From: a virus
Reading direction: 5' to 3' (one strand)
Length of the DNA: 19,658 nt
UHGV virus genome: UHGV-0171543
In this document: one piece after another, positions 7,709 to 15,230 of the stretch
How positions within the stretch are numbered: the first letter of the stretch is position 1
Layout: every line of letters starts with the position of its first letter
Notes under the pieces: generated by a model
Seen by the model: only the letters and a program-made list of their open reading frames with translations
What the model was told of the DNA's origin: nothing
Database searches by the model: none
Made by a program: the position numbers and the translations under genes

Positions 7709-8425
<717 letters not shown>

Positions 8426-8432
8426 CACGTAA

Positions 8433-8870
8433 ATGATTAAAGAACGTATTTCTTATATCATTCCGATTGCGATGGATGAAGGCAACCCCGTAACTCCAGT
8501 TCTTATCTATGAAATGGATAAAGACTCCCATGAAGTGGATCTGTCATTTGGCGCTTTTTTTATCGGCCTTAAGGCTACAAAAAAATATTCCATAGGCATT
8601 GAGGTTTTCAATGCTCAAGAAATACCGATACCAATTGACACAAAACTGTACTCCAACCATAAGTTTTTTACGGTAGCAGAAGCCAACGATGGAGAAACCA
8701 TCGTATCAACTTCTATGAGAATTAACTTCCCAAGGGTGAAAATTATCAAGCCTGGGATATTCGAAGTTAGAGCATCACTGGTTAATCCTGAGAAAGGCGA
8801 AGTAATTGATGTAAAAAGTTCGTTTTTTGACGTGAAGATAACAGGATCAGTTCGCGATGAGTTTAGATAA
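8433..8870 (+). CDS. Hypothetical protein A of a two-gene cassette at the rexA position (unknown function)
   Basis: 145-aa ORF starting 7 nt after the cI stop, same strand. No TM segment and no motif I recognise. Confidence 0.7.
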   Translation: MIKERISYIIPIAMDEGNPVTPVLIYEMDKDSHEVDLSFGAFFIGLKATKKYSIGIEVFNAQEIPIPIDTKLYSNHKFFTVAEANDGETIVSTSMRINFPRVKIIKPGIFEVRASLVNPEKGEVIDVKSSFFDVKITGSVRDEFR

Positions 8871-9228
8871 CAAGGTTGCTCAGCTTCGTCCAAATCAAAA
8901 CATATCTCGCCCAATTGGACACTATTACACTGATGATGCATACTCACGGCATGGTGGAGGAAACGGCGGAGGTAACATGCTTGAGGCTAGAGTTGCAAAG
9001 CTAGAGTCTGATGTTGAATACATCAAGCGCGATCTCGCTGAGGTAAAGTCAGATATAAAATCTGTTGATTCTCGTCTGTCAGGTATTGAGACAAGCATTA
9101 GCTCAGCAAAAACCACCATTAAGGCATCTGCGGTCGTTGTCAGTTTCGTGTTCGCATTTTGCGCCTACATTTTTGGAAGTTATGTTTCCAAAATCCTTGA
9201 TGCCTTAAACGGACTCATTCTTAAGTAA
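8857..9228 (+). CDS. Hypothetical membrane protein B of the cassette: Gly-rich linker, amphipathic coiled coil, single C-terminal TM helix
   Basis: 123-aa ORF overlapping gene A by 14 nt. An alternative start at ATG 8977 is preceded by GGAGGT and would give 84 aa. Heptad-like segment LEARVAKLESDVEYIKRDLAEVKSDIKSV, then hydrophobic AVVVSFVFAFCAYIFGSYV near the C-terminus. Confidence 0.7.
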   Translation: MSLDNKVAQLRPNQNISRPIGHYYTDDAYSRHGGGNGGGNMLEARVAKLESDVEYIKRDLAEVKSDIKSVDSRLSGIETSISSAKTTIKASAVVVSFVFAFCAYIFGSYVSKILDALNGLILK

Positions 9229-9235
9229 CACACAA

Positions 9236-9261
9236 CCCGGCCTCAGTGCCGGGTTTTCTTT
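9236..9261 (+). terminator. Rho-independent terminator closing the cI-cassette operon
   Basis: CCCGGC-CTCAGT-GCCGGG stem-loop followed by TTTTCTTT, 8 nt after the gene B stop. Confidence 0.6.
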
Positions 9262-9413
9262 GCCTCTCGATCCCCCTTCCCAACAACACATAACCATTTG
9301 TATTTATTGGAAAACTAATAGATAAAACTTGCTAAACAGTGCAATTCTGATCCCTCACCTACCTAACAATTCACCCCCTGCAAAAAATAAATCCATATAA
9401 AAAACATACAGAT

Positions 9414-9476
9414 AACCATCTGCGGTGATAAATTATCTCTGGCGGTGTTGACATAAATACCACTAGCGGTGATACT
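9414..9476 (+). promoter_or_regulatory. oL3-oL2-oL1 operators and pL promoter
   Basis: AACCATCTGCGGTGATA (9414..9430), TATCTCTGGCGGTGTTG (9434..9450), TACCACTAGCGGTGATA (9458..9474). pL -35 TTGACA (9448..9453) and -10 GATACT (9471..9476) with 17-bp spacing. Near-identical to lambda pL as recalled. Confidence 0.85.
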
Positions 9477-9521
9477 AAACACATCAGCAGGACGCTGGAA
9501 GCCAAACGGAACAGATTGGCA

Positions 9522-9556
9522 TGCTCTTTAACTTCGATGGGGCGCTGACAAAGCGC
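9522..9556 (+). promoter_or_regulatory. nutL-like site: boxA and P22-type boxB
   Basis: TGCTCTTTAAC (boxA-like, 9522..9532) followed by GCGCTGACAAAGCGC (9542..9556, 4-bp stem with GACAA-containing loop), in the pL leader upstream of N. Confidence 0.65.
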
Positions 9557-9720
9557 AAACAGATACCAAACGAGATGGGTTTGGGATTTGATGAATGTGC
9601 AGGTCGATGCACTAACGCTTAGCGGTGAGCACCTGCCTTTGGGGCAGGATGGGTAGCCGCAATCAGGAGATCGACACCTGACATCAAATCACCAAAGCCA
9701 TTTCACATGAGGAAAACATC

Positions 9721-10029
9721 ATGACGGTAATCGTGTACGGAAAATCAACATTTGCAGGAAATGCCAAAACTCGCCGTCATGAGCGGCGCAGAAAGCTGGC
9801 TATCGAGCGTGATGCTATATGCAACATCATCGATTCGATCTTCGGTACAGACAGTGATGAACCTTTTCAGGAAAAACCGAGAAAGCGTTTAAATCTTTCT
9901 GAAAAAGCAATATCACTCAGCAACATTCGTAACCAAAATACCGATGAATGCAGTGGAAGTATTTGTCTTCCAAATGTAGCTCTTTACGCGGCAGGCTACA
10001 GGAAATCAAAACAACTGACGGCGAGATGA
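9721..10029 (+). CDS. N: N-family transcription antiterminator, P22 gene 24 type (arginine-rich motif)
   Basis: 102-aa ORF, first gene after pL, with GAGGA RBS. N-terminal GNAKTRRHERRRKLAIER is the P22 N arginine-rich boxB-binding peptide as recalled. Not lambda N. Confidence 0.85.
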   Translation: MTVIVYGKSTFAGNAKTRRHERRRKLAIERDAICNIIDSIFGTDSDEPFQEKPRKRLNLSEKAISLSNIRNQNTDECSGSICLPNVALYAAGYRKSKQLTAR

Positions 10030-10044
10030 TAAATCATTTGCTAA

Positions 10045-10626
10045 TTACTTGTTTTTGCCATGCTTATCCTGAGCGATAAGTTCATCCATAAGACTGTCTT
10101 TCTTCCCAGCAAACCTAATGTAGCACTCATTTCTATAGCGTTCCGGGATAACAAAACGGTCGATTTCAGGATATCCAGTAGCAGAAGGTATCCGAATAAG
10201 AAGCCCTTTTTCGAGCAATGAGATTGCTTCAGGGCTTCCCTTTTCTGTCTTTAGCTGGTTATTCGCGGCTACAGCGAATGCCAAATACGCTCTTTCTCCA
10301 AGAGTTAACGAATCAAACAAATCTTGCACATATTTTTCTTCTTTAGATTTGCGCTTCTGAGCAGCGGATACCTCAATTCTTTCAGTCACAGCGTGATAAG
10401 CGGAATTAACAACACCGTTAAGCACATAGCTAACGCAGAACAACAGGATGTAATACATCCAATAATGAGGAAGGATTTCTGGATTATGCAGGTTTATCCA
10501 TTCTTTTACGCTTACCGGCATAACAATAATCAATATGATCAGGATGATTAGCATATGAATCAACTGTTTAAGTGTCATTCCTTGCAGGAAAAAATGCATT
10601 AGTTCCTGCCACCATGAGTTGTTCAT
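10045..10626 (-). CDS. sieB: Superinfection exclusion protein B
   Basis: 193-aa ORF opposite in orientation to N, with an N-terminal hydrophobic segment (LIHMLIILIILIIVMPV). Matches lambda SieB as recalled. Confidence 0.8.
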   Translation of the reverse strand: MNNSWWQELMHFFLQGMTLKQLIHMLIILIILIIVMPVSVKEWINLHNPEILPHYWMYYILLFCVSYVLNGVVNSAYHAVTERIEVSAAQKRKSKEEKYVQDLFDSLTLGERAYLAFAVAANNQLKTEKGSPEAISLLEKGLLIRIPSATGYPEIDRFVIPERYRNECYIRFAGKKDSLMDELIAQDKHGKNK

Positions 10627-10769
10627 CGGCGTTTCTCTTTTGCTCGCTGTAGGGGTGAATAGAGTTTATCCGATTTCTCGCTGTAGGGGTACACGAGAAC
10701 CACCGAGCCTGATGTGGTTAAAAGACAGGCACAATCTTTACTACCGCAATCCACTATTTAAGGTGATAT

Positions 10770-10856
10770 ATGGAAGAAGAATTTGAAGAGTTCGAAGAGC
10801 ATCCTCAGGATGTGATGGAACAATACCAGGACTATCCTTATGACTACGACTATTGA
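10770..10856 (+). CDS. Small acidic ORF (28 aa) overlapping the ral start
   Basis: ATG at 10770 preceded by AAGGTGA. Hand translation MEEEFEEFEEHPQDVMEQYQDYPYDYDY. Its stop overlaps the first codons of ral, which has no obvious SD of its own. Confidence 0.3.
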   Translation: MEEEFEEFEEHPQDVMEQYQDYPYDYDY

Positions 10857-11040
10857 TAAAAATCAATGGTGTGGACAATTCAAGCGATGCAATGGATGCA
10901 AGCTGCAATCGGAATGCATGGTTAAGCCTGAAGAAATGTTTCCTGTAATGGAAGATGGGAAATATGTCGATAAATGGGCAATACGAACTACGGCAATGAT
11001 TGCCAGAGAACTTGGTAAACAGAACAACAAGGCTGCCTGA
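10840..11040 (+). CDS. ral: Restriction alleviation protein Ral
   Basis: 66-aa ORF MTTTIDKNQWCGQFKRCNGCKLQSECMVKPEEMF..., matching lambda Ral as recalled. Confidence 0.85.
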   Translation: MTTTIDKNQWCGQFKRCNGCKLQSECMVKPEEMFPVMEDGKYVDKWAIRTTAMIARELGKQNNKAA

Positions 11041-11100
11041 TGTGTGGCCTTTATTTTTTGGCCGTAAATAATTTCATGCTTATTACAATCAAGGGGATAT

Positions 11101-11550
11101 ATGGAAGAACAAGCAAACAAGATTCTCGTAGAACTACTGCAAAAAGCCAGCAATGGAATAGACACGGCTGTTTCATTCAGCCAGGCGCAGATTCCTGATG
11201 TTGTTCATCAGTTGCTGCTATGGAATATGGTTGACAGTCTGATTAAAACATTAATAGCCATTCTAACAATCCCACTGGTTTTCTGGTTTATGAAGAAGCA
11301 GTGCCGAAGAGTTGAGACAGGTAAAATCGGTGATGAAGGATATTCATGGGAGAAGGGAAATCCCAAATACAGGCCGACAATGGTTTGGGATAGCAAAGGT
11401 GATATTAATCTTCTTATCATGCCATTAGTTGGAGTTTTGGCTCTGTGGGGGATTTTTATTATTAGTGCAGTAACCAATATGACATGGTTAAAAATTTTGC
11501 TGGCTCCAAAGCTTTACCTTATCGAATATGCAGCATCATTGGTTAAGTAA
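11101..11550 (+). CDS. Hypothetical inner-membrane protein (two predicted TM helices)
   Basis: 149-aa ORF with AAGGGGA RBS. Hydrophobic segments LIKTLIAILTIPLVFWFM and INLLIMPLVGVLALWGIFIISAV. No lambda counterpart recalled at this position. Confidence 0.6.
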   Translation: MEEQANKILVELLQKASNGIDTAVSFSQAQIPDVVHQLLLWNMVDSLIKTLIAILTIPLVFWFMKKQCRRVETGKIGDEGYSWEKGNPKYRPTMVWDSKGDINLLIMPLVGVLALWGIFIISAVTNMTWLKILLAPKLYLIEYAASLVK

Positions 11551-11737
11551 TTTCAGGCCGCATAGTCGGCCTTTATTTTTGGCACTAACAACAGAATAAA
11601 CACTGCACTGTGTATTCATTCCAACGAGTGAATACACGGAGCAATGTCGCTCGTAACTAAACAGGAGCCGACTTGTTCTGATTATTGGAAATCTTCTTTG
11701 CCCTCCAGTGTGAGGGCAATTTTTTGACGGAGGATAT

Positions 11738-12706
11738 ATGAGTGAAGTAACAGATTTAGTTGTTATTGAAAAAGCAAATGCAATGACTGTATTTCAGTCT
11801 GCCGACCAGATTGAAGAAATCCTTCAAAAGGTTGAACGTGAAGTTATGTCCTTTGTGCCTGATATCACAACGGCAAAGGGCAGAAAGGAGATCGCTTCTC
11901 TGGCGTATAAAGTTGCGCAGACGAAAACATATCTCGATGGTCTTGGCAAAGACCTTGTTGCTGAACTGAAGGAAATTCCAAAGCTAATTGATGCCAACCG
12001 CAAGACAGTGCGCGATCGCCTTGATGAACTGAAAGCCAAGGCACGCCAGCCTCTTACTGATTATGAAGAGGAACAGGCGCGGATTAAAGCCGAAGAAGAA
12101 GCTAAGGCAGCAGCTGAAGCTCTCGCAAAGCAAATTGAGTCTGACCATGAAATAGCGATTTTGATGGATCGCGAATTTGACCGCCAAAGAGAAGAGGCAA
12201 GACTCAAAGCGGAGCAGGAAAAGCGAGAGCATGAAGAACGCTTAAAAAGAGAAGCTGAAGAGAAAGCCAGAGCAGAAGCCGAAGCAAAGGCAAAAGCCGA
12301 AATTGAAGCAGCAGCAAGGCGAGAAGCAGAAGCTAAGGCCGCAGCGGAACGTGCAGAGCGTGAACGCATTGAAGCCGAGCAACGAGCACAGCGCGAAGCA
12401 AAAGAGGCAGCAGAACGAGCTGAAAGAGAAAAGCAGGCGGCAATTGAAGCAGAACGCCGAAAAGCACAGGAGGAGGCTGAACGAATCCGGCGCGAGGCTG
12501 AAGCAAAAGAGCAAGCCAGAATAGCAGAAGAAAAAAGAATCAAGGACGAAGAAGAGCGTAGAGCAAAGGATAAAGCTCACCGGAAAGAAGTAAATAACAA
12601 AATACTTGCTGACCTTATCAAGGTTGGCGCATCAGAAGATGTTGCTAAAAATATCATAACAGCCATCGTAAAAGGCGAAGTATTCGCAACAAAAATAACC
12701 TACTAA
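11738..12706 (+). CDS. Hypothetical protein with a long K/E/A/R-rich low-complexity coiled-coil core between N- and C-terminal domains
   Basis: 322-aa ORF with GGAGG RBS. The central region of roughly 170 aa is an EAEAKAKAE/AERAERE-type charged repeat; the flanks are ordinary sequence. The repetitive DNA creates spurious ORFs on the opposite strand. Confidence 0.65.
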   Translation: MSEVTDLVVIEKANAMTVFQSADQIEEILQKVEREVMSFVPDITTAKGRKEIASLAYKVAQTKTYLDGLGKDLVAELKEIPKLIDANRKTVRDRLDELKAKARQPLTDYEEEQARIKAEEEAKAAAEALAKQIESDHEIAILMDREFDRQREEARLKAEQEKREHEERLKREAEEKARAEAEAKAKAEIEAAARREAEAKAAAERAERERIEAEQRAQREAKEAAERAEREKQAAIEAERRKAQEEAERIRREAEAKEQARIAEEKRIKDEEERRAKDKAHRKEVNNKILADLIKVGASEDVAKNIITAIVKGEVFATKITY

Positions 12707-12729
12707 TAAACCAACATAAGGAACCACCC

Positions 12730-12861
12730 ATGATTTACGCAATCGCGGGAGGCGCTCGCATGGGTGCCTTCCAACTAAATGAATCTTTACTTGAACGAAT
12801 CACCCGTAAATTACGTGACGGATGGAAAAGAGTTGAGGTCTTATTATGCGCAATGAAATAG
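12730..12861 (+). CDS. cIII: CIII-like protein (FtsH/HflB inhibitor), short allele
   Basis: 43-aa ORF, below the ORF-track cutoff, with AAGGA RBS. Contains ESLLERITRKLRDGWKR, the conserved central helix of lambda CIII as recalled. Confidence 0.75.
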   Translation: MIYAIAGGARMGAFQLNESLLERITRKLRDGWKRVEVLLCAMK

Positions 12862-12998
12862 CCATCAATCACCAGATGCTTCGTGCTGCACAGAACAAAG
12901 CAGTAATAGCCCGATTTATTGGTGATTCAAAAATGTGGCTTGAAGCAAATAAAGCGATGAAATCAGCTATCAACCTTCCGTGGTATCGCAGGAAATGA
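12846..12998 (+). CDS. kil: Kil-like protein (putative host cell-division inhibitor)
   Basis: 50-aa ORF overlapping the cIII end. The segment IARFIGDSKMWLEA resembles what I recall of lambda Kil (IATFIGDEKMFREA). Position after cIII fits. Confidence 0.5.
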   Translation: MRNEIAINHQMLRAAQNKAVIARFIGDSKMWLEANKAMKSAINLPWYRRK

Positions 12999-13165
12999 GT
13001 TTTACAGATAACTGGTCAGACGAAGAATTCATTCGTCAGATGAAAGAATTAATCGGTAACGAAGGAGATATTCATGTCACTTGCAACCACAGTGAAGGAG
13101 AGCAAGTTACAGAGACGCATGTACACGCAGCAGGCGTTAATGTATCGCCAGAAGGGAGATCGTGA
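12995..13165 (+). CDS. Small hypothetical protein
   Basis: ATG at 12995 overlaps the kil stop (ATGA), giving 56 aa (MSFTDNWSDEEFIRQMKELIGNEGDIHV...). The ORF track begins it at an upstream GTG (12980). Confidence 0.4.
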   Translation: MSFTDNWSDEEFIRQMKELIGNEGDIHVTCNHSEGEQVTETHVHAAGVNVSPEGRS

Positions 13166-13252
13166 AGGTGTTCGCGTATTTTTAAATGCGGCAAAGACTG
13201 AAGTATTAAATCAGCGTTATTTCCTTGGGCCGTGTCCATTCTGAGGTGAATT

Positions 13253-13960
13253 ATGGATTTGAATAAATTCGATGAGCCATTCAGCCCTGAAGATATCGAA
13301 TGGCGAATACAGCAAAGCGGTAAAACACGCGATGGCAAAGTGTGGGCTATGGTGCTGGCTTATGTCACGAACCGGGCAATCATGAAACGCCTGGACGATG
13401 TTTGCGGCAAAGCAGGATGGCGCAATGAATACCGCGATATTCCCAACAACGGCGGCGTTGAATGCGGCATATCAATCAGGATTGATTCCGAATGGGTAAC
13501 CAAATGGGATGCTGCTGAAAACACGCAGGTAGAAGCCGTCAAAGGTGGTCGTTCCGGTGCAATGAAGCGCGCTGCCGTTCAGTGGGGAATCGGTCGGTAT
13601 CTGTATAACCTTGAGGAAGGTTTCGCACAAACATCTCTCGATAAAAAGCAGGGATGGCACAGGGCAAAACTCAAGGATGGAACAGGATTTTACTGGCTCC
13701 CTCCATCGCTGCCGGGATGGGCAATCCCAACATCAGATAACAAACCATCACCAGAAAATACCAACCAGAAATCTCCATCGGTTGACTGCGAACAAATCCT
13801 GAAAGACTTCAGCGATTATGCGTCAACAGAAACTGACAAGAAAAAACTCATCGAGCGTTATCAGCGTGACTGGCAATTAATGGCTGGTAACGAGGAGGCG
13901 CAGGCTAAATGCGTTCAGGTAATGAACATCAGAGTTAACGAACTAAAACAGGCGGCATAA
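13253..13960 (+). CDS. Rad52-family single-strand annealing protein (Sak-like core) with Erf-like C-terminal tail
   Basis: 235-aa ORF with GAGGTGA RBS. Rad52/Sak-type motif GGVECGISIRIDSEW...AVKGGRSGAMKRAAVQWGIGRYLYNLEE. The C-terminal segment ETDKKKLIERYQRDWQL...CVQVMNIRVNELKQAA resembles the P22 Erf C-terminus as recalled. Confidence 0.8.
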   Translation: MDLNKFDEPFSPEDIEWRIQQSGKTRDGKVWAMVLAYVTNRAIMKRLDDVCGKAGWRNEYRDIPNNGGVECGISIRIDSEWVTKWDAAENTQVEAVKGGRSGAMKRAAVQWGIGRYLYNLEEGFAQTSLDKKQGWHRAKLKDGTGFYWLPPSLPGWAIPTSDNKPSPENTNQKSPSVDCEQILKDFSDYASTETDKKKLIERYQRDWQLMAGNEEAQAKCVQVMNIRVNELKQAA

Positions 13961-14434
13961 ATGGGAAGTAGAGGCGTAAATAAGGTGATCATTATTGGTC
14001 GCCTTGGGCATGATCCAGAAATCAGATATTCACCATCAGGAACGGCATTTGCAAACCTTACAGTTGCTACGTCAGAACAATGGCGTGATAAGCAAACTGG
14101 AGAGCAAAAGGAGCAGACGGAGTGGCACCGCGTGGTAATGAGCGGGAAACTGGCAGAAATTGCCAGCGAATATCTGCGAAAAGGCTCTGAGGTTTATCTT
14201 GAAGGCAAATTGCGGACAAGAAAATGGCAGGATCAAAGCGGACAGGATCGGTTCACTACCGAAGTTATCGTGGGCGTTGGTGGAACCATGCAAATGCTTG
14301 GTGGCAAGCAAGGAGGAAATGAACAGTCTTCACCTCAGCGAAATAACGGTCAGCAACAAAGACAGCAACCTCAGCAGCAAGGGAATCACAGCGAACCACC
14401 TATGAACTTCGACGATTCGGATATTCCGTTCTAG
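13961..14434 (+). CDS. ssb: Single-stranded DNA-binding protein
   Basis: 157-aa ORF starting at the ATG immediately after the annealing-protein stop. OB-fold-like N-terminal region, Gly/Gln-rich linker, acidic C-terminal tail DDSDIPF. Confidence 0.9.
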
Positions 14435-14443
14435 GAGCTGAAT

Positions 14444-14923
14444 ATGAAAATCTGCTCAAGATGCCATCAACAGAAGGAAGAAAGGGACTTTCAAATCAGA
14501 AGAGCATCCAGAGATGGATTAACTGCCGCTTGCCGGGCTTGCCTGGCTGAATACGACAAAGAGCGCGCGGGATTGCCACATCGAGTATCAGCAAGGAGAG
14601 AATATCAATCATCGGAACGCGGCAGAGAACGGTGTAACGCAGCCAAAAAGCGGTTCATTCAGAGCAACCCATGGAAAAGAAAAGCCCACATCATCGTGGG
14701 TAATTTTTTGCGCGACGGTAAGCTAATCCGACCACCACAATGTGAGTGCTGCGGATCAGAATGTAAACCACAGGCGCACCACTGCGACTACAGCAAACCA
14801 ACCGATGTGATGTGGCTCTGCAAGTCATGTCATGTCGAGTGGCACAAACATAACAAACCTATCTACCCAGACGAGGAGCCAGTAACTCTCCCCTTCCCTC
14901 GTCACGCTATTCACGCAATTTAA
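14444..14923 (+). CDS. Putative HNH endonuclease with N-terminal zinc ribbon
   Basis: 159-aa ORF. N-terminal CSRCH...CRAC and C-terminal CECCGSEC...AHHCDYSKPTDVMWLCKSCHVEWH fit an HNH (His-Asn-His) nuclease motif with Cys ligands. Confidence 0.6.
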   Translation: MKICSRCHQQKEERDFQIRRASRDGLTAACRACLAEYDKERAGLPHRVSARREYQSSERGRERCNAAKKRFIQSNPWKRKAHIIVGNFLRDGKLIRPPQCECCGSECKPQAHHCDYSKPTDVMWLCKSCHVEWHKHNKPIYPDEEPVTLPFPRHAIHAI

Positions 14924-14936
14924 TCAGGAGAAAATC

Positions 14937-15230
14937 ATGCCAGCGCCTCTGTATGGTGCGGACGACGCGCGCCGCTGTTCCGGCAATTCCGTATCGGAGG
15001 TGCTGGATAAATTCAGAAAAAACTACGATCGGATAATGTCGCTACCGCAGGAAACGAAAGAGGAAAAGGAATTTCGCCACTGTATATGGCTTGCAGAGAA
15101 AGAAGAACGCGAGCGAATTTACCAGACATCAATCCGACCATTCCGCAAAGCCACATATACCCACTTCCCTGAAATTGACCCGCGCCTGCGTAATTACCGC
15201 TCACGCTATGGTGCTATCAGTAATGACTGA
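14937..15230 (+). CDS. Hypothetical protein
   Basis: 97-aa ORF with GGAGAAAA upstream, in the same operon. No recognised motif. Confidence 0.5.

What the first reader, a model, noticed from the sequence alone, without database searches (positions are those of the whole stretch)
11101..12706. Two unfamiliar genes between ral and cIII: a polytopic membrane protein and a protein with a very long charged coiled-coil core
Seen in sequence: a 149-aa protein with two strong hydrophobic helices, then a 322-aa protein whose central region of roughly 170 aa is an EAEAKAKAE/AERAERE-type repeat between ordinary N- and C-terminal domains; both have good ribosome-binding sites. Established knowledge: in lambda this position holds ea10, and the ral/sieB neighbourhood encodes host-takeover and exclusion functions. 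Inference: this is a second accessory cargo site; the pair could be a membrane-associated exclusion or anti-defence function.
Basis: partly seen in the sequence, partly recalled or inferred. Interest (0 to 1): 0.55.

Follow-up and report, generated by a model that had tools for sequence, protein, structure and literature searches.

The report
Recombination-module helper plus unrelated membrane gene
The two genes are real but are not a pair: the small membrane-protein gene is an optional insert, while the long charged-helix protein belongs to a very large, uncurated phage family (phi80 Agt, Pseudomonas phage D3 gp53) that sits ahead of phage recombination genes and probably affects how the host RecBCD enzyme deals with linear DNA ends.

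Summary
Both ORFs exist as described. They are orf149 (11101-11550, two TM helices) and orf322 (11738-12706, with a ~170-aa E/K/R/A-rich helical core). Both are already sequenced in known phages: Sf6 genes 34 and 33, and HF4s g37 and g36.

They are not a functional pair. In 80 near-identical loci, orf322 is always followed by cIII, but an orf149-type gene lies upstream in only 12. orf149 also occurs without orf322, including in virulent phages. It is a discrete cassette inserted into the ral terminator.

orf322 occupies lambda's ea10 slot and has no TM segment or signal peptide, so the "TolA" label reflects composition only. It is a full-length homolog of phi80 Agt/Mog ("anti-toxin for Gam") and of D3 gp53, which a 2025 preprint found to be one of three redundant factors that license Gabija restriction. 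The other licensing factors in that study include known RecBCD-excluding end-binding proteins.

The N-terminal domain defines a family of at least 3,500 50%-identity clusters with no Pfam model. In 56 species-level prophage loci the family lies directly upstream of ERF, RecT, Rad52 or Sak4 annealing proteins, exonucleases and SSBs.

Interest is moderate.

The parts
11029..11058 (+). ral terminator-like hairpin plus T-run; left copy of the sequence that brackets the orf149 cassette
   Evidence: Terminator scan. The alignment with lambda shows that ral's 3' flank continues to here and then diverges into the cassette.
11101..11550 (+). orf149: two-pass inner-membrane protein of phrog_3054. It has a conserved N-terminal amphipathic region (aa 1-42), TM1 at 43-64, a basic loop at 65-104, TM2 at 105-127 and a conserved C-terminal helix at 128-149.
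   Evidence: No Pfam, NCBIfam, PADLOC or PDB match.
11555..11582 (+). Second copy of the terminator-like hairpin (GGCC..GGCCTTTATTTTTGGC). Homology with lambda resumes here.
11562..11737 (+). Conserved lambdoid intergenic segment (lambda tL2 region / Sf6 'bsq4' boundary). It contains a 22-nt-arm inverted repeat at 11600-11647, the tL2A-type terminator at 11698-11719 and the orf322 RBS.
   Evidence: ~95% identical to lambda 33911-34087. Sf6 annotation. RNA fold -66.5 kcal/mol, z = -5.9. Inverted repeat.
11738..12082 (+). orf322 N-terminal domain (aa 1-115), the family-defining helical domain. In a 16-sequence alignment of closer relatives G48, R49, K63, G70, K71, K78, K82, D85, R88, R92, P105, E110 and Q113 are invariant. 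Across the 70-sequence set only R49, G70, R88 and E110 stay invariant.
   Evidence: AF2 pLDDT 73-88.
12083..12187 (+). orf322 aa 116-150: start of the long helix, carrying the conserved E-x-DHE-x-A-x-LM-xx-FDR motif (aa 134-150). Some natural variants lack this motif.
12188..12592 (+). orf322 aa 151-285: E/K/R/A-rich helical spacer of the ER/K single-alpha-helix type. AF2 draws it as a hairpin with its tip at aa 191-193. Natural 11-77-aa in-frame indels fall here or just upstream of it (all within aa 128-235).
12593..12706 (+). orf322 C-terminal domain (aa 286-322; motif H-x-K-x-V/I-N ... G-x-x-E-x-x-A ... I-x-Y at the C terminus) plus the stop codon. The domain is shared with phi80 Agt and D3 gp53.
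12730..12998 (+). cIII (12730-12861) and kil (12846-12998). cIII immediately follows orf322 in all 80 close relatives examined; kil follows in most.
13253..15230 (+). Recombination module downstream: Rad52-like annealing protein (13253-13960), SSB (13961-14434), an optional Cys-rich ORF (14444-14923) and Abc2 anti-RecBCD (14937-15230).

Best explanation
The finding covers two independent genes of the N-antiterminated early-left (pL) operon of a P22-like/lambdoid phage.

1. orf322. It is a cytoplasmic member of the Agt/gp53 family. Its parts are a conserved N-terminal helical domain, a length-variable E/K/R/A-rich helix that acts as a spacer, and a small conserved C-terminal domain. The family is the usual leading gene of phage recombination modules. 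My inference is that it acts on the contest between RecBCD and linear DNA ends. It would either keep RecBCD off phage DNA ends or modulate the phage's RecBCD inhibitor (Abc2 here, GamL in phi80). This would favour phage recombination and circularisation, and it would also make the phage visible to defences that sense loss of RecBCD activity, such as Gabija. Homology, architecture and synteny are shown here. The link to RecBCD rests on two homologs studied elsewhere. The molecular target is inferred.

2. orf149. It is an unrelated two-pass membrane protein carried on a ~0.5-kb cassette inserted into the ral terminator. It has its own terminator copy but no recognisable promoter, so it is probably expressed early in lytic growth by read-through from pL. 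Its function is unknown. An early-lytic membrane role such as superinfection exclusion or host takeover is plausible but untested.
For: Homology of orf322:
- 51% identity over the full length with phi80 Agt/Mog (E 1e-64). The GenBank entry calls Agt 'anti-toxin for Gam' and describes gamL as 'toxic without Mog'.
- Both the N- and C-terminal domains are shared with D3 gp53 and JBD44 gp65 (N-domain 52% identity, E 1e-37).
- D3 orf53 lies directly upstream of erf-exo.
- D3 orf53 independently licenses Gabija in trans, on heterologous phage and on transduced plasmids. In the same study MuGam and Exo-Erf also license Gabija, and absence of RecBCD is what sensitises DNA (PMC12407980).

Family size:
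- 5,037 50%-identity clusters at E <= 1e-3 and 3,587 at E <= 1e-10.

Synteny in 56 species-level loci:
- The three downstream ORFs include ERF 20, RecT 6, AAA_24 5, Rad52 3, SSB 16 and YqaJ 16 among 143 ORFs.
- The upstream ORFs include RecT 2, YqaJ 2 and SSB 1 among 94 ORFs.
- Fisher p = 1.4e-6 for annealing proteins.
- About 19 loci have an 8-11-nt gap between the family gene and the next ORF, which in most of them is an identified annealing-protein gene.

Independence of the two genes:
-.

Cytoplasmic location and rejection of TolA:
-.

Spacer behaviour of the charged helix:
- Natural 245-333-aa variants have indels confined to aa 128-235. Two of them (the 77-aa and 22-aa deletions) have endpoints at degenerate DNA repeats.
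Against: - No experiment exists for this protein or for any enteric P22-like homolog.
- The phi80 claim is known to me only from a GenBank note, because the paper could not be read.
- The D3 result is a preprint that does not say what gp53 does biochemically.
- Near-identical orf322 alleles sit beside four different annealing-protein families, and beside Abc2, lambda Gam or no recognised inhibitor. A specific partnership with any one phage protein is therefore unlikely.
- Co-residence with Abc2 in 63 of 69 loci means orf322 is not simply a substitute for an anti-RecBCD gene.
- In this window cIII and kil separate orf322 from the recombination genes.
- A 2025 survey of lambdoid Rec modules does not list this family.
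- Fold searches gave nothing informative.
Confidence: 0.55

Rival explanations
1. One reading: orf149 and orf322 work together as a membrane-associated superinfection-exclusion or anti-defence pair.
For: - The genes are adjacent and co-oriented in the accessory zone next to ral and sieB.
- The same pair occurs in Sf6, HF4s, CUS-3 and HK633.
Against: - Only 12 of 80 close orf322 loci have an orf149-type gene upstream.
- orf149 occurs with a different downstream gene in phage Oslo, inside a tail module in Vibrio phage K366, and in virulent phi92-like phages.
- Sf6 carries a 49%-identical orf149 allele next to a ~97%-identical orf322, so the two have separate histories.
- Terminators and a mosaic boundary lie between them.
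- orf322 has no membrane segment.
Confidence: 0.07
2. orf322 is specifically an antitoxin or modifier for a Gam-type RecBCD inhibitor. It binds the inhibitor and limits its toxicity, which is the literal phi80 'Agt/Mog' reading.
For: - phi80 annotation.
- The homolog lies immediately upstream of gamL in phi80, Klebsiella phage Mulock and a Brenneria prophage.
Against: - This window and 63 of 69 close relatives carry Abc2, not GamL.
- Most Pseudomonas and Burkholderiales loci show no recognised Gam or Abc2 in the four downstream ORFs.
- D3 gp53 acts alone in trans.
Confidence: 0.15
3. orf322 is a recombination mediator or scaffold for the annealing protein, exonuclease or SSB (loading, bridging or tethering to replication forks). 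It would have no direct action on RecBCD.
For: - Tight, often 8-11-nt, coupling to ERF, RecT or Rad52 genes.
- The two-headed spacer architecture suits bridging.
Against: - The same allele serves four non-homologous annealing-protein families.
- D3 gp53 licenses Gabija independently of Exo-Erf.
Confidence: 0.18
4. orf322 is a TolA-like cell-envelope protein, as PGAP and several phage records name it.
For: 'TolA' names in the databases.
Against: - TIGR02794 tolA_full scores 9.2 bits against a cut-off of 59.45 (E 0.62).
- No Pfam TolA domain.
- No TM anchor.
- The similarity is confined to the low-complexity helix.
Confidence: 0.01

Closest known systems
Phage phi80 Agt / Mog (PHI80_40, 'anti-toxin for Gam')
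   Same: Both are 322 aa with 51% identity end to end. They share the same N-domain, charged helix and C-domain. Both lie in the pL operon ahead of the recombination genes.
   Different: In phi80 the gene directly precedes gamL-recT-exo. Here it precedes cIII-kil and a Rad52-like/SSB/Abc2 module with no GamL. The phi80 function is known to me only from the GenBank note.
Pseudomonas phage D3 gp53 (Orf53), a Gabija 'licensing factor' (Hong et al. 2025 preprint, PMC12407980)
   Same: The N-domain is 52% identical and the C-terminal motif is conserved. The overall architecture is the same. It lies at the head of the Rec module (erf-exo).
   Different: The middle region differs: D3 has an extra ~40-aa insert and lacks the DHE..LLM..FDR motif. 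The host and defence context (P. aeruginosa Gabija) has not been tested for the enteric protein.
Shigella phage Sf6 gene 33 and gene 34; Escherichia phage HF4s g36 and g37
   Same: These are essentially the same genes. Nucleotide identity is ~97% across the locus for HF4s, and the same order ral-34-33-cIII is seen in Sf6.
   Different: Sf6 gene 34 is a divergent allele, 49% identical in amino acids to orf149. All are annotated as hypothetical, apart from HF4s's 'antitoxin' transfer from phi80.
Known phage RecBCD antagonists (lambda Gam, phi80 GamL, P22 Abc2, Mu Gam)
   Same: Genomic neighbourhood. For D3 gp53, the same phenotype of licensing Gabija as Mu Gam.
   Different: No sequence or fold similarity. 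orf322 co-occurs with Abc2 rather than replacing it. The mechanism is unknown.
ER/K single-alpha-helix (SAH) spacers, such as those of myosin VI/X and TolA domain II
   Same: Composition: 61% charged, 26% Ala, 7% hydrophobic, dense i/i+4 salt-bridge pairs and no heptad pattern. The region is predicted to be a continuous helix.
   Different: Monomeric SAH behaviour has not been shown. AF2 draws an antiparallel hairpin instead, with a low-confidence tip.
Lambda Ea10 (occupant of the same slot)
   Same: Identical position, after the conserved ral-tL2 segment and before cIII.
   Different: No homology. Ea10 is 122 aa and is annotated 'ssb'.

Membership tests
Agt / D3 gp53 family (uncurated; phrog_1376) | Homologous N-terminal helical domain (~115 aa) | tested here: met
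   E 1e-64 to phi80 Agt and 1e-37 to D3 gp53. phrog_1376 E 2e-110.
Agt / D3 gp53 family (uncurated; phrog_1376) | Conserved small C-terminal domain ending in I-x-Y, joined to the N-domain by a long charged helix | tested here: met
   Alignments A3 and A7.
Agt / D3 gp53 family (uncurated; phrog_1376) | Position in an early operon upstream of the recombination module | tested here: met
   The window order is orf322-cIII-kil-SSAP-SSB-Abc2. Family-wide synteny is shown.
Agt / D3 gp53 family (uncurated; phrog_1376) | Function: relieves Gam toxicity (phi80) or licenses Gabija (D3) | not testable with these tools
   Needs genetics. Only the annotation and the preprint are available.
TolA (cell envelope integrity protein) | N-terminal membrane anchor | tested here: not met
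   Maximum 19-residue hydropathy is 1.03, at aa 293.
TolA (cell envelope integrity protein) | Match to the TolA profile, including C-terminal domain III | tested here: not met
   TIGR02794 scores 9.2 bits against a cut-off of 59.45. No Pfam hit.
Canonical coiled coil | Heptad periodicity with hydrophobic a/d positions | tested here: not met
   The best phase has 14% LIVMFWY at a/d positions.
ER/K single alpha-helix | High E/K/R content, i/i+4 opposite charges, few hydrophobic residues, predicted helix | tested here: met
ER/K single alpha-helix | Stable monomeric helix in solution | not testable with these tools
   Needs CD, SEC-MALS or SAXS.
Moron (orf149 cassette) | Discrete insertion between conserved flanks, with its own terminator | tested here: met
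   The ral terminator hairpin is duplicated on both sides, and lambda homology resumes after the cassette. The gene stands alone on the opposite strand inside a tail module in Vibrio phage K366.
Moron (orf149 cassette) | Own promoter that allows expression from the prophage | tested here: not met
   No sigma-70-like site on the + strand between 11040 and 11100. This was a simple consensus scan only.
Known superinfection-exclusion or defence proteins (SieB, PADLOC set) | Profile match | tested here: not met
   No Pfam, NCBIfam or PADLOC hit for orf149.

The most novel reading that the evidence does not exclude
The Agt/gp53 family, of which orf322 is a member, would be a previously unrecognised and very widespread class of phage factor that excludes or redirects RecBCD at linear DNA ends. 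It would use two small binding domains held apart by a length-tunable single-alpha-helix 'ruler'. That would make it a fifth kind of anti-RecBCD or end-protection function in Rec modules, and a general trigger for defences that sense loss of RecBCD activity (Gabija, Old, retron Ec48) across Proteobacteria.
Probability: 0.3. Interest if true: 0.65.

Novelty: new member of a known kind. Interest (0 to 1): 0.4.

Why it matters
orf322-type genes occur in about 10% of complete E. coli genomes (530 of 5,426). The family spans thousands of sequence clusters. Despite this it has no Pfam or NCBIfam model, is widely mislabelled "TolA", and is absent from a 2025 survey of lambdoid recombination modules.

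Three facts had not been connected before: phi80 Agt, D3 gp53 (a Gabija licensing factor) and the enteric "TolA" prophage proteins are one family with conserved synteny. That connection gives a concrete, testable hypothesis about RecBCD and DNA-end antagonism. It bears on three questions:
- how phages protect linear DNA;
- why Gabija-type defences see them;
- whether recombineering systems lack a helpful accessory factor.

The orf149 result mainly corrects the idea of a two-gene system.

Tried and rejected
- Curated profile searches. Pfam, NCBIfam and PADLOC searches of both proteins, and of the separated N- and C-domains, gave no significant family.
- PDB sequence searches. Single-sequence and profile searches returned only coiled-coil noise for orf322 and nothing for orf149.
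- Other fold searches. Foldseek against BFVD returned only unnamed family members for orf322 and nothing for orf149, whose model is low-confidence anyway at pLDDT 65. The afdb50 library was unavailable.
- Rfam on 9000-13300 found nothing.
- The Rotman et al. 2012 phi80 paper could not be retrieved, so the Agt evidence rests on the GenBank note.
- Repeat counting.
- correction. I first read its 333 matching phage records as carriers of the genes. Most of them match only the conserved lambda-type intergenic segment. Records that truly carry orf322 are far fewer: 155 by tblastn, of which 35 are at >=95% identity.
- DUF1351 relationship. I considered one from memory. No Pfam hit appeared for any of 70 diverse members, so I do not claim it.
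- AF2 hairpin. I did not accept it as shown. The tip has pLDDT below 50, and natural asymmetric deletions (for example aa 128-204) would re-register the arms.
Full report
**Observation.**
The window carries a lambdoid/P22-like immunity and early-left region on the + strand. The gene order is:
- cI (7712-8425), N (9721-10029), sieB (10045-10626, minus strand), ral (10840-11040);
- the two ORFs of the finding;
- cIII (12730-12861), kil (12846-12998), a 61-aa phrog_2123 ORF;
- a Rad52-like annealing protein (13253-13960), SSB (13961-14434), a Cys-rich ORF and Abc2 (14937-15230).

Both have good Shine-Dalgarno sequences.

orf149 has two hydrophobic helices, aa 43-64 and 105-127.

orf322 has a ~170-aa charged core. 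Residues 151-285 are 61% charged, 26% Ala and 7% hydrophobic. No heptad register stands out, so the core is better described as an ER/K-type single-helix spacer than as a coiled coil. It also has no discrete repeat unit.

**The genes are already in the databases.**
The locus is ~97% identical in DNA to Escherichia phage HF4s (g37, g36). With a divergent orf149 allele, it also matches Shigella phage Sf6 (genes 34, 33), CUS-3 and HK633.

orf322 alone is found in mEp213, mEp234, mEp043, HK544, IME10, Sf101 and Stx1a phages. It is present in 530 of 5,426 complete E. coli genomes, against 238 for orf149.

Many of the 333 megablast hits match only the 187-nt intergenic segment. That segment is ~95% identical to lambda 33911-34087, the tL2-containing stretch between ral and ea10. 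orf322 therefore sits precisely in lambda's ea10 slot.

**Not a pair.**
- In 80 IMG/VR loci with 98-100% identical orf322, cIII always follows. The upstream neighbour varies: N alone, ral, sieB, Sf6 gp36, or an orf149-type gene in only 12 of 80.
- orf149 occurs without orf322 in Salmonella phage Oslo. It stands alone on the opposite strand inside the tail module of Vibrio phage K366. It also occurs in virulent phi92-like myoviruses and a Ralstonia jumbo phage.
- Alignment with lambda shows that the orf149 cassette (~11070-11575) is inserted into the ral terminator. A copy of the hairpin GGCC..GGCCTTTATTTTTGGC lies on each side.
- No promoter-like site precedes orf149. Expression is therefore probably by N-antiterminated read-through early in lytic growth.
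- The family (phrog_3054) conserves its N-terminal amphipathic region and the C-terminal WLKIWLAPKLYLIEYAASL helix far better than the TM helices.
- Nothing further could be learned about its function. The AF2 model is poor (pLDDT 65) and all profile and fold searches were empty.

**What orf322 is.**
It has no Pfam, NCBIfam, PADLOC or PDB relative. The "TolA" name fails on both counts tested: tolA_full scores 9.2 bits against a 59.45 cut-off, and there is no membrane anchor.

It is a full-length homolog of phi80 PHI80_40, agt. The two proteins are 322 aa each and 51% identical (E 1e-64). The GenBank record annotates agt as "anti-toxin for Gam; Mog (modifier of Gam)", and the adjacent gamL as "toxic without Mog". 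HF4s's annotators had already transferred that name.

It also shares both terminal domains with Pseudomonas phage D3 Orf53 and JBD44 gp65. Sf6's original annotation noted the D3 similarity.

The N-terminal 160 aa recover 5,037 clusters (50% identity) at E <= 1e-3 and 3,587 at E <= 1e-10. The top 150 all align from residue ~1.

**Architecture.**
AF2 with 70 diverse homologs gives pLDDT 84. It predicts short helices at 12-38, one helix at 46-190, a low-confidence turn at 189-201, a helix at 194-295 and a small C-terminal element.

Natural variants of 245-333 aa differ by in-frame indels confined to aa 128-235. For two of them the endpoints coincide with degenerate DNA direct repeats. The 77-aa deletion spans nt 12119-12349, between repeat copies at 12092 and 12323. 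The 22-aa deletion lies between copies at 12329 and 12395.

Strongly asymmetric deletions are tolerated. This argues for a register-free spacer rather than a specifically paired hairpin.

**Genomic association.**
In 56 species-level prophage loci from GTDB genomes, I examined the three ORFs downstream of the family gene. The hosts include Enterobacterales, Pseudomonas, Burkholderiales and Methylococcaceae. The 143 downstream ORFs include ERF (20), RecT (6), AAA_24/Sak4-like (5), Rad52 (3), SSB (16) and YqaJ exonuclease (16).

The two upstream ORFs contain almost none of these: RecT 2, YqaJ 2 and SSB 1 among 94 ORFs. Fisher p = 1.4e-6 for annealing proteins.

By my own profiles, 32 of 56 loci have an ERF, RecT or Rad52 gene within three ORFs. 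About 19 have only 8-11 nt between the family gene and the next ORF, which in most of them is an identified annealing-protein gene.

phi80 and Klebsiella phage Mulock have the order agt-gamL-recT/bet-exo. D3 and JBD44 have gp53-erf-exo.

Among close E. coli relatives the same orf322 allele sits upstream of four different annealing-protein families. It also sits with Abc2 (63 of 69), lambda Gam (2) or no recognised inhibitor (4). A host target or DNA therefore seems more likely than a dedicated phage partner.

A 2025 survey of lambdoid Rec modules does not mention this family.

**Functional lead.**
Hong et al. (bioRxiv 2025, PMC12407980) studied how D3 escapes Pseudomonas Gabija. Escape requires loss of three redundant "licensing factors": Exo-Erf (gp51-52), gp53 and gp66.

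Expressing orf53 alone restores Gabija targeting, even of an unrelated JBD30 escape phage. It also lowers transduction of a plasmid that carries it.

[quoted passage not shown] The authors propose that exclusion of RecBCD from linear DNA is what Gabija detects. They offer no mechanism for gp53.

Together with the phi80 "modifier of Gam" note, this places the family on the RecBCD/DNA-end axis. That placement is my inference for orf322. The biochemical target and the roles of the two domains are unknown.

**Verdict.**

- orf322 is a new member of a known but barely characterised family.
- orf149 is a member of an uncharacterised phage membrane-protein family.

Interest is moderate. Its value lies in joining three previously separate observations into a testable hypothesis about a very common, mislabelled phage protein.

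Noticed in passing
window 11551-11737: The intergenic segment is ~95% identical to lambda 33911-34087 (between ral and ea10; tL2 region; Sf6 'bsq4' boundary). It folds unusually well (-66.5 kcal/mol, z = -5.9). It contains a 22-nt-arm inverted repeat at 11600-11647 plus the terminator at 11698-11719. The same segment is conserved in ~330 phage records whatever gene follows it.
   Followed up: partly
window 11029-11058 and 11555-11582: Two copies of the ral terminator hairpin (GGCC..GGCCTTTATTTTTGGC) bracket the orf149 cassette. This suggests that cassettes are swapped by recombination at terminator hairpins.
   Followed up: partly
window 12092-12431: Degenerate 27-37-nt GAAGC-rich direct repeats inside orf322 coincide with the endpoints of natural in-frame deletion variants. 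The 245-aa and 300-aa forms are common in E. coli and Salmonella prophages. The 245-aa form lacks the conserved DHE..LLM..FDR motif.
   Followed up: yes
window 8433-8870 and 8857-9228: Two co-oriented ORFs (145 and 123 aa) lie immediately after cI, in the position of lambda rexA/rexB. Neither has a significant Pfam family; there is only a sub-threshold XhlA match. They are possible lysogen-expressed cargo.
   Followed up: no
window 14444-14923: A Cys-rich 159-aa ORF (CxxC motifs) lies between SSB and Abc2 and corresponds to Sf6 gene 26. It is present in only a minority of otherwise identical Rec modules and has no Pfam hit.
   Followed up: no
window 12980-13165: A 61-aa ORF (phrog_2123, labelled 'recombinase') lies between kil and the Rad52-like gene, in the position that Arf holds in P22-like phages. 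It is present in most but not all close relatives.
   Followed up: no
L153 (phage D3) 2989-4814; L118 and L133: In D3 the gp53 ORF as annotated overlaps the start of erf by ~65 nt. In several Burkholderiales and other loci the family gene overlaps or abuts the next ORF. This is consistent with translational coupling.
   Followed up: no
L150 (phage phi92) 2483-4060: In phi92 the orf149 homolog gp220 is immediately followed, 12 nt later, by gp221, a predicted AAA ATPase or Zn-metalloprotease-like protein. This is a possible functional neighbour in virulent phages.
   Followed up: no
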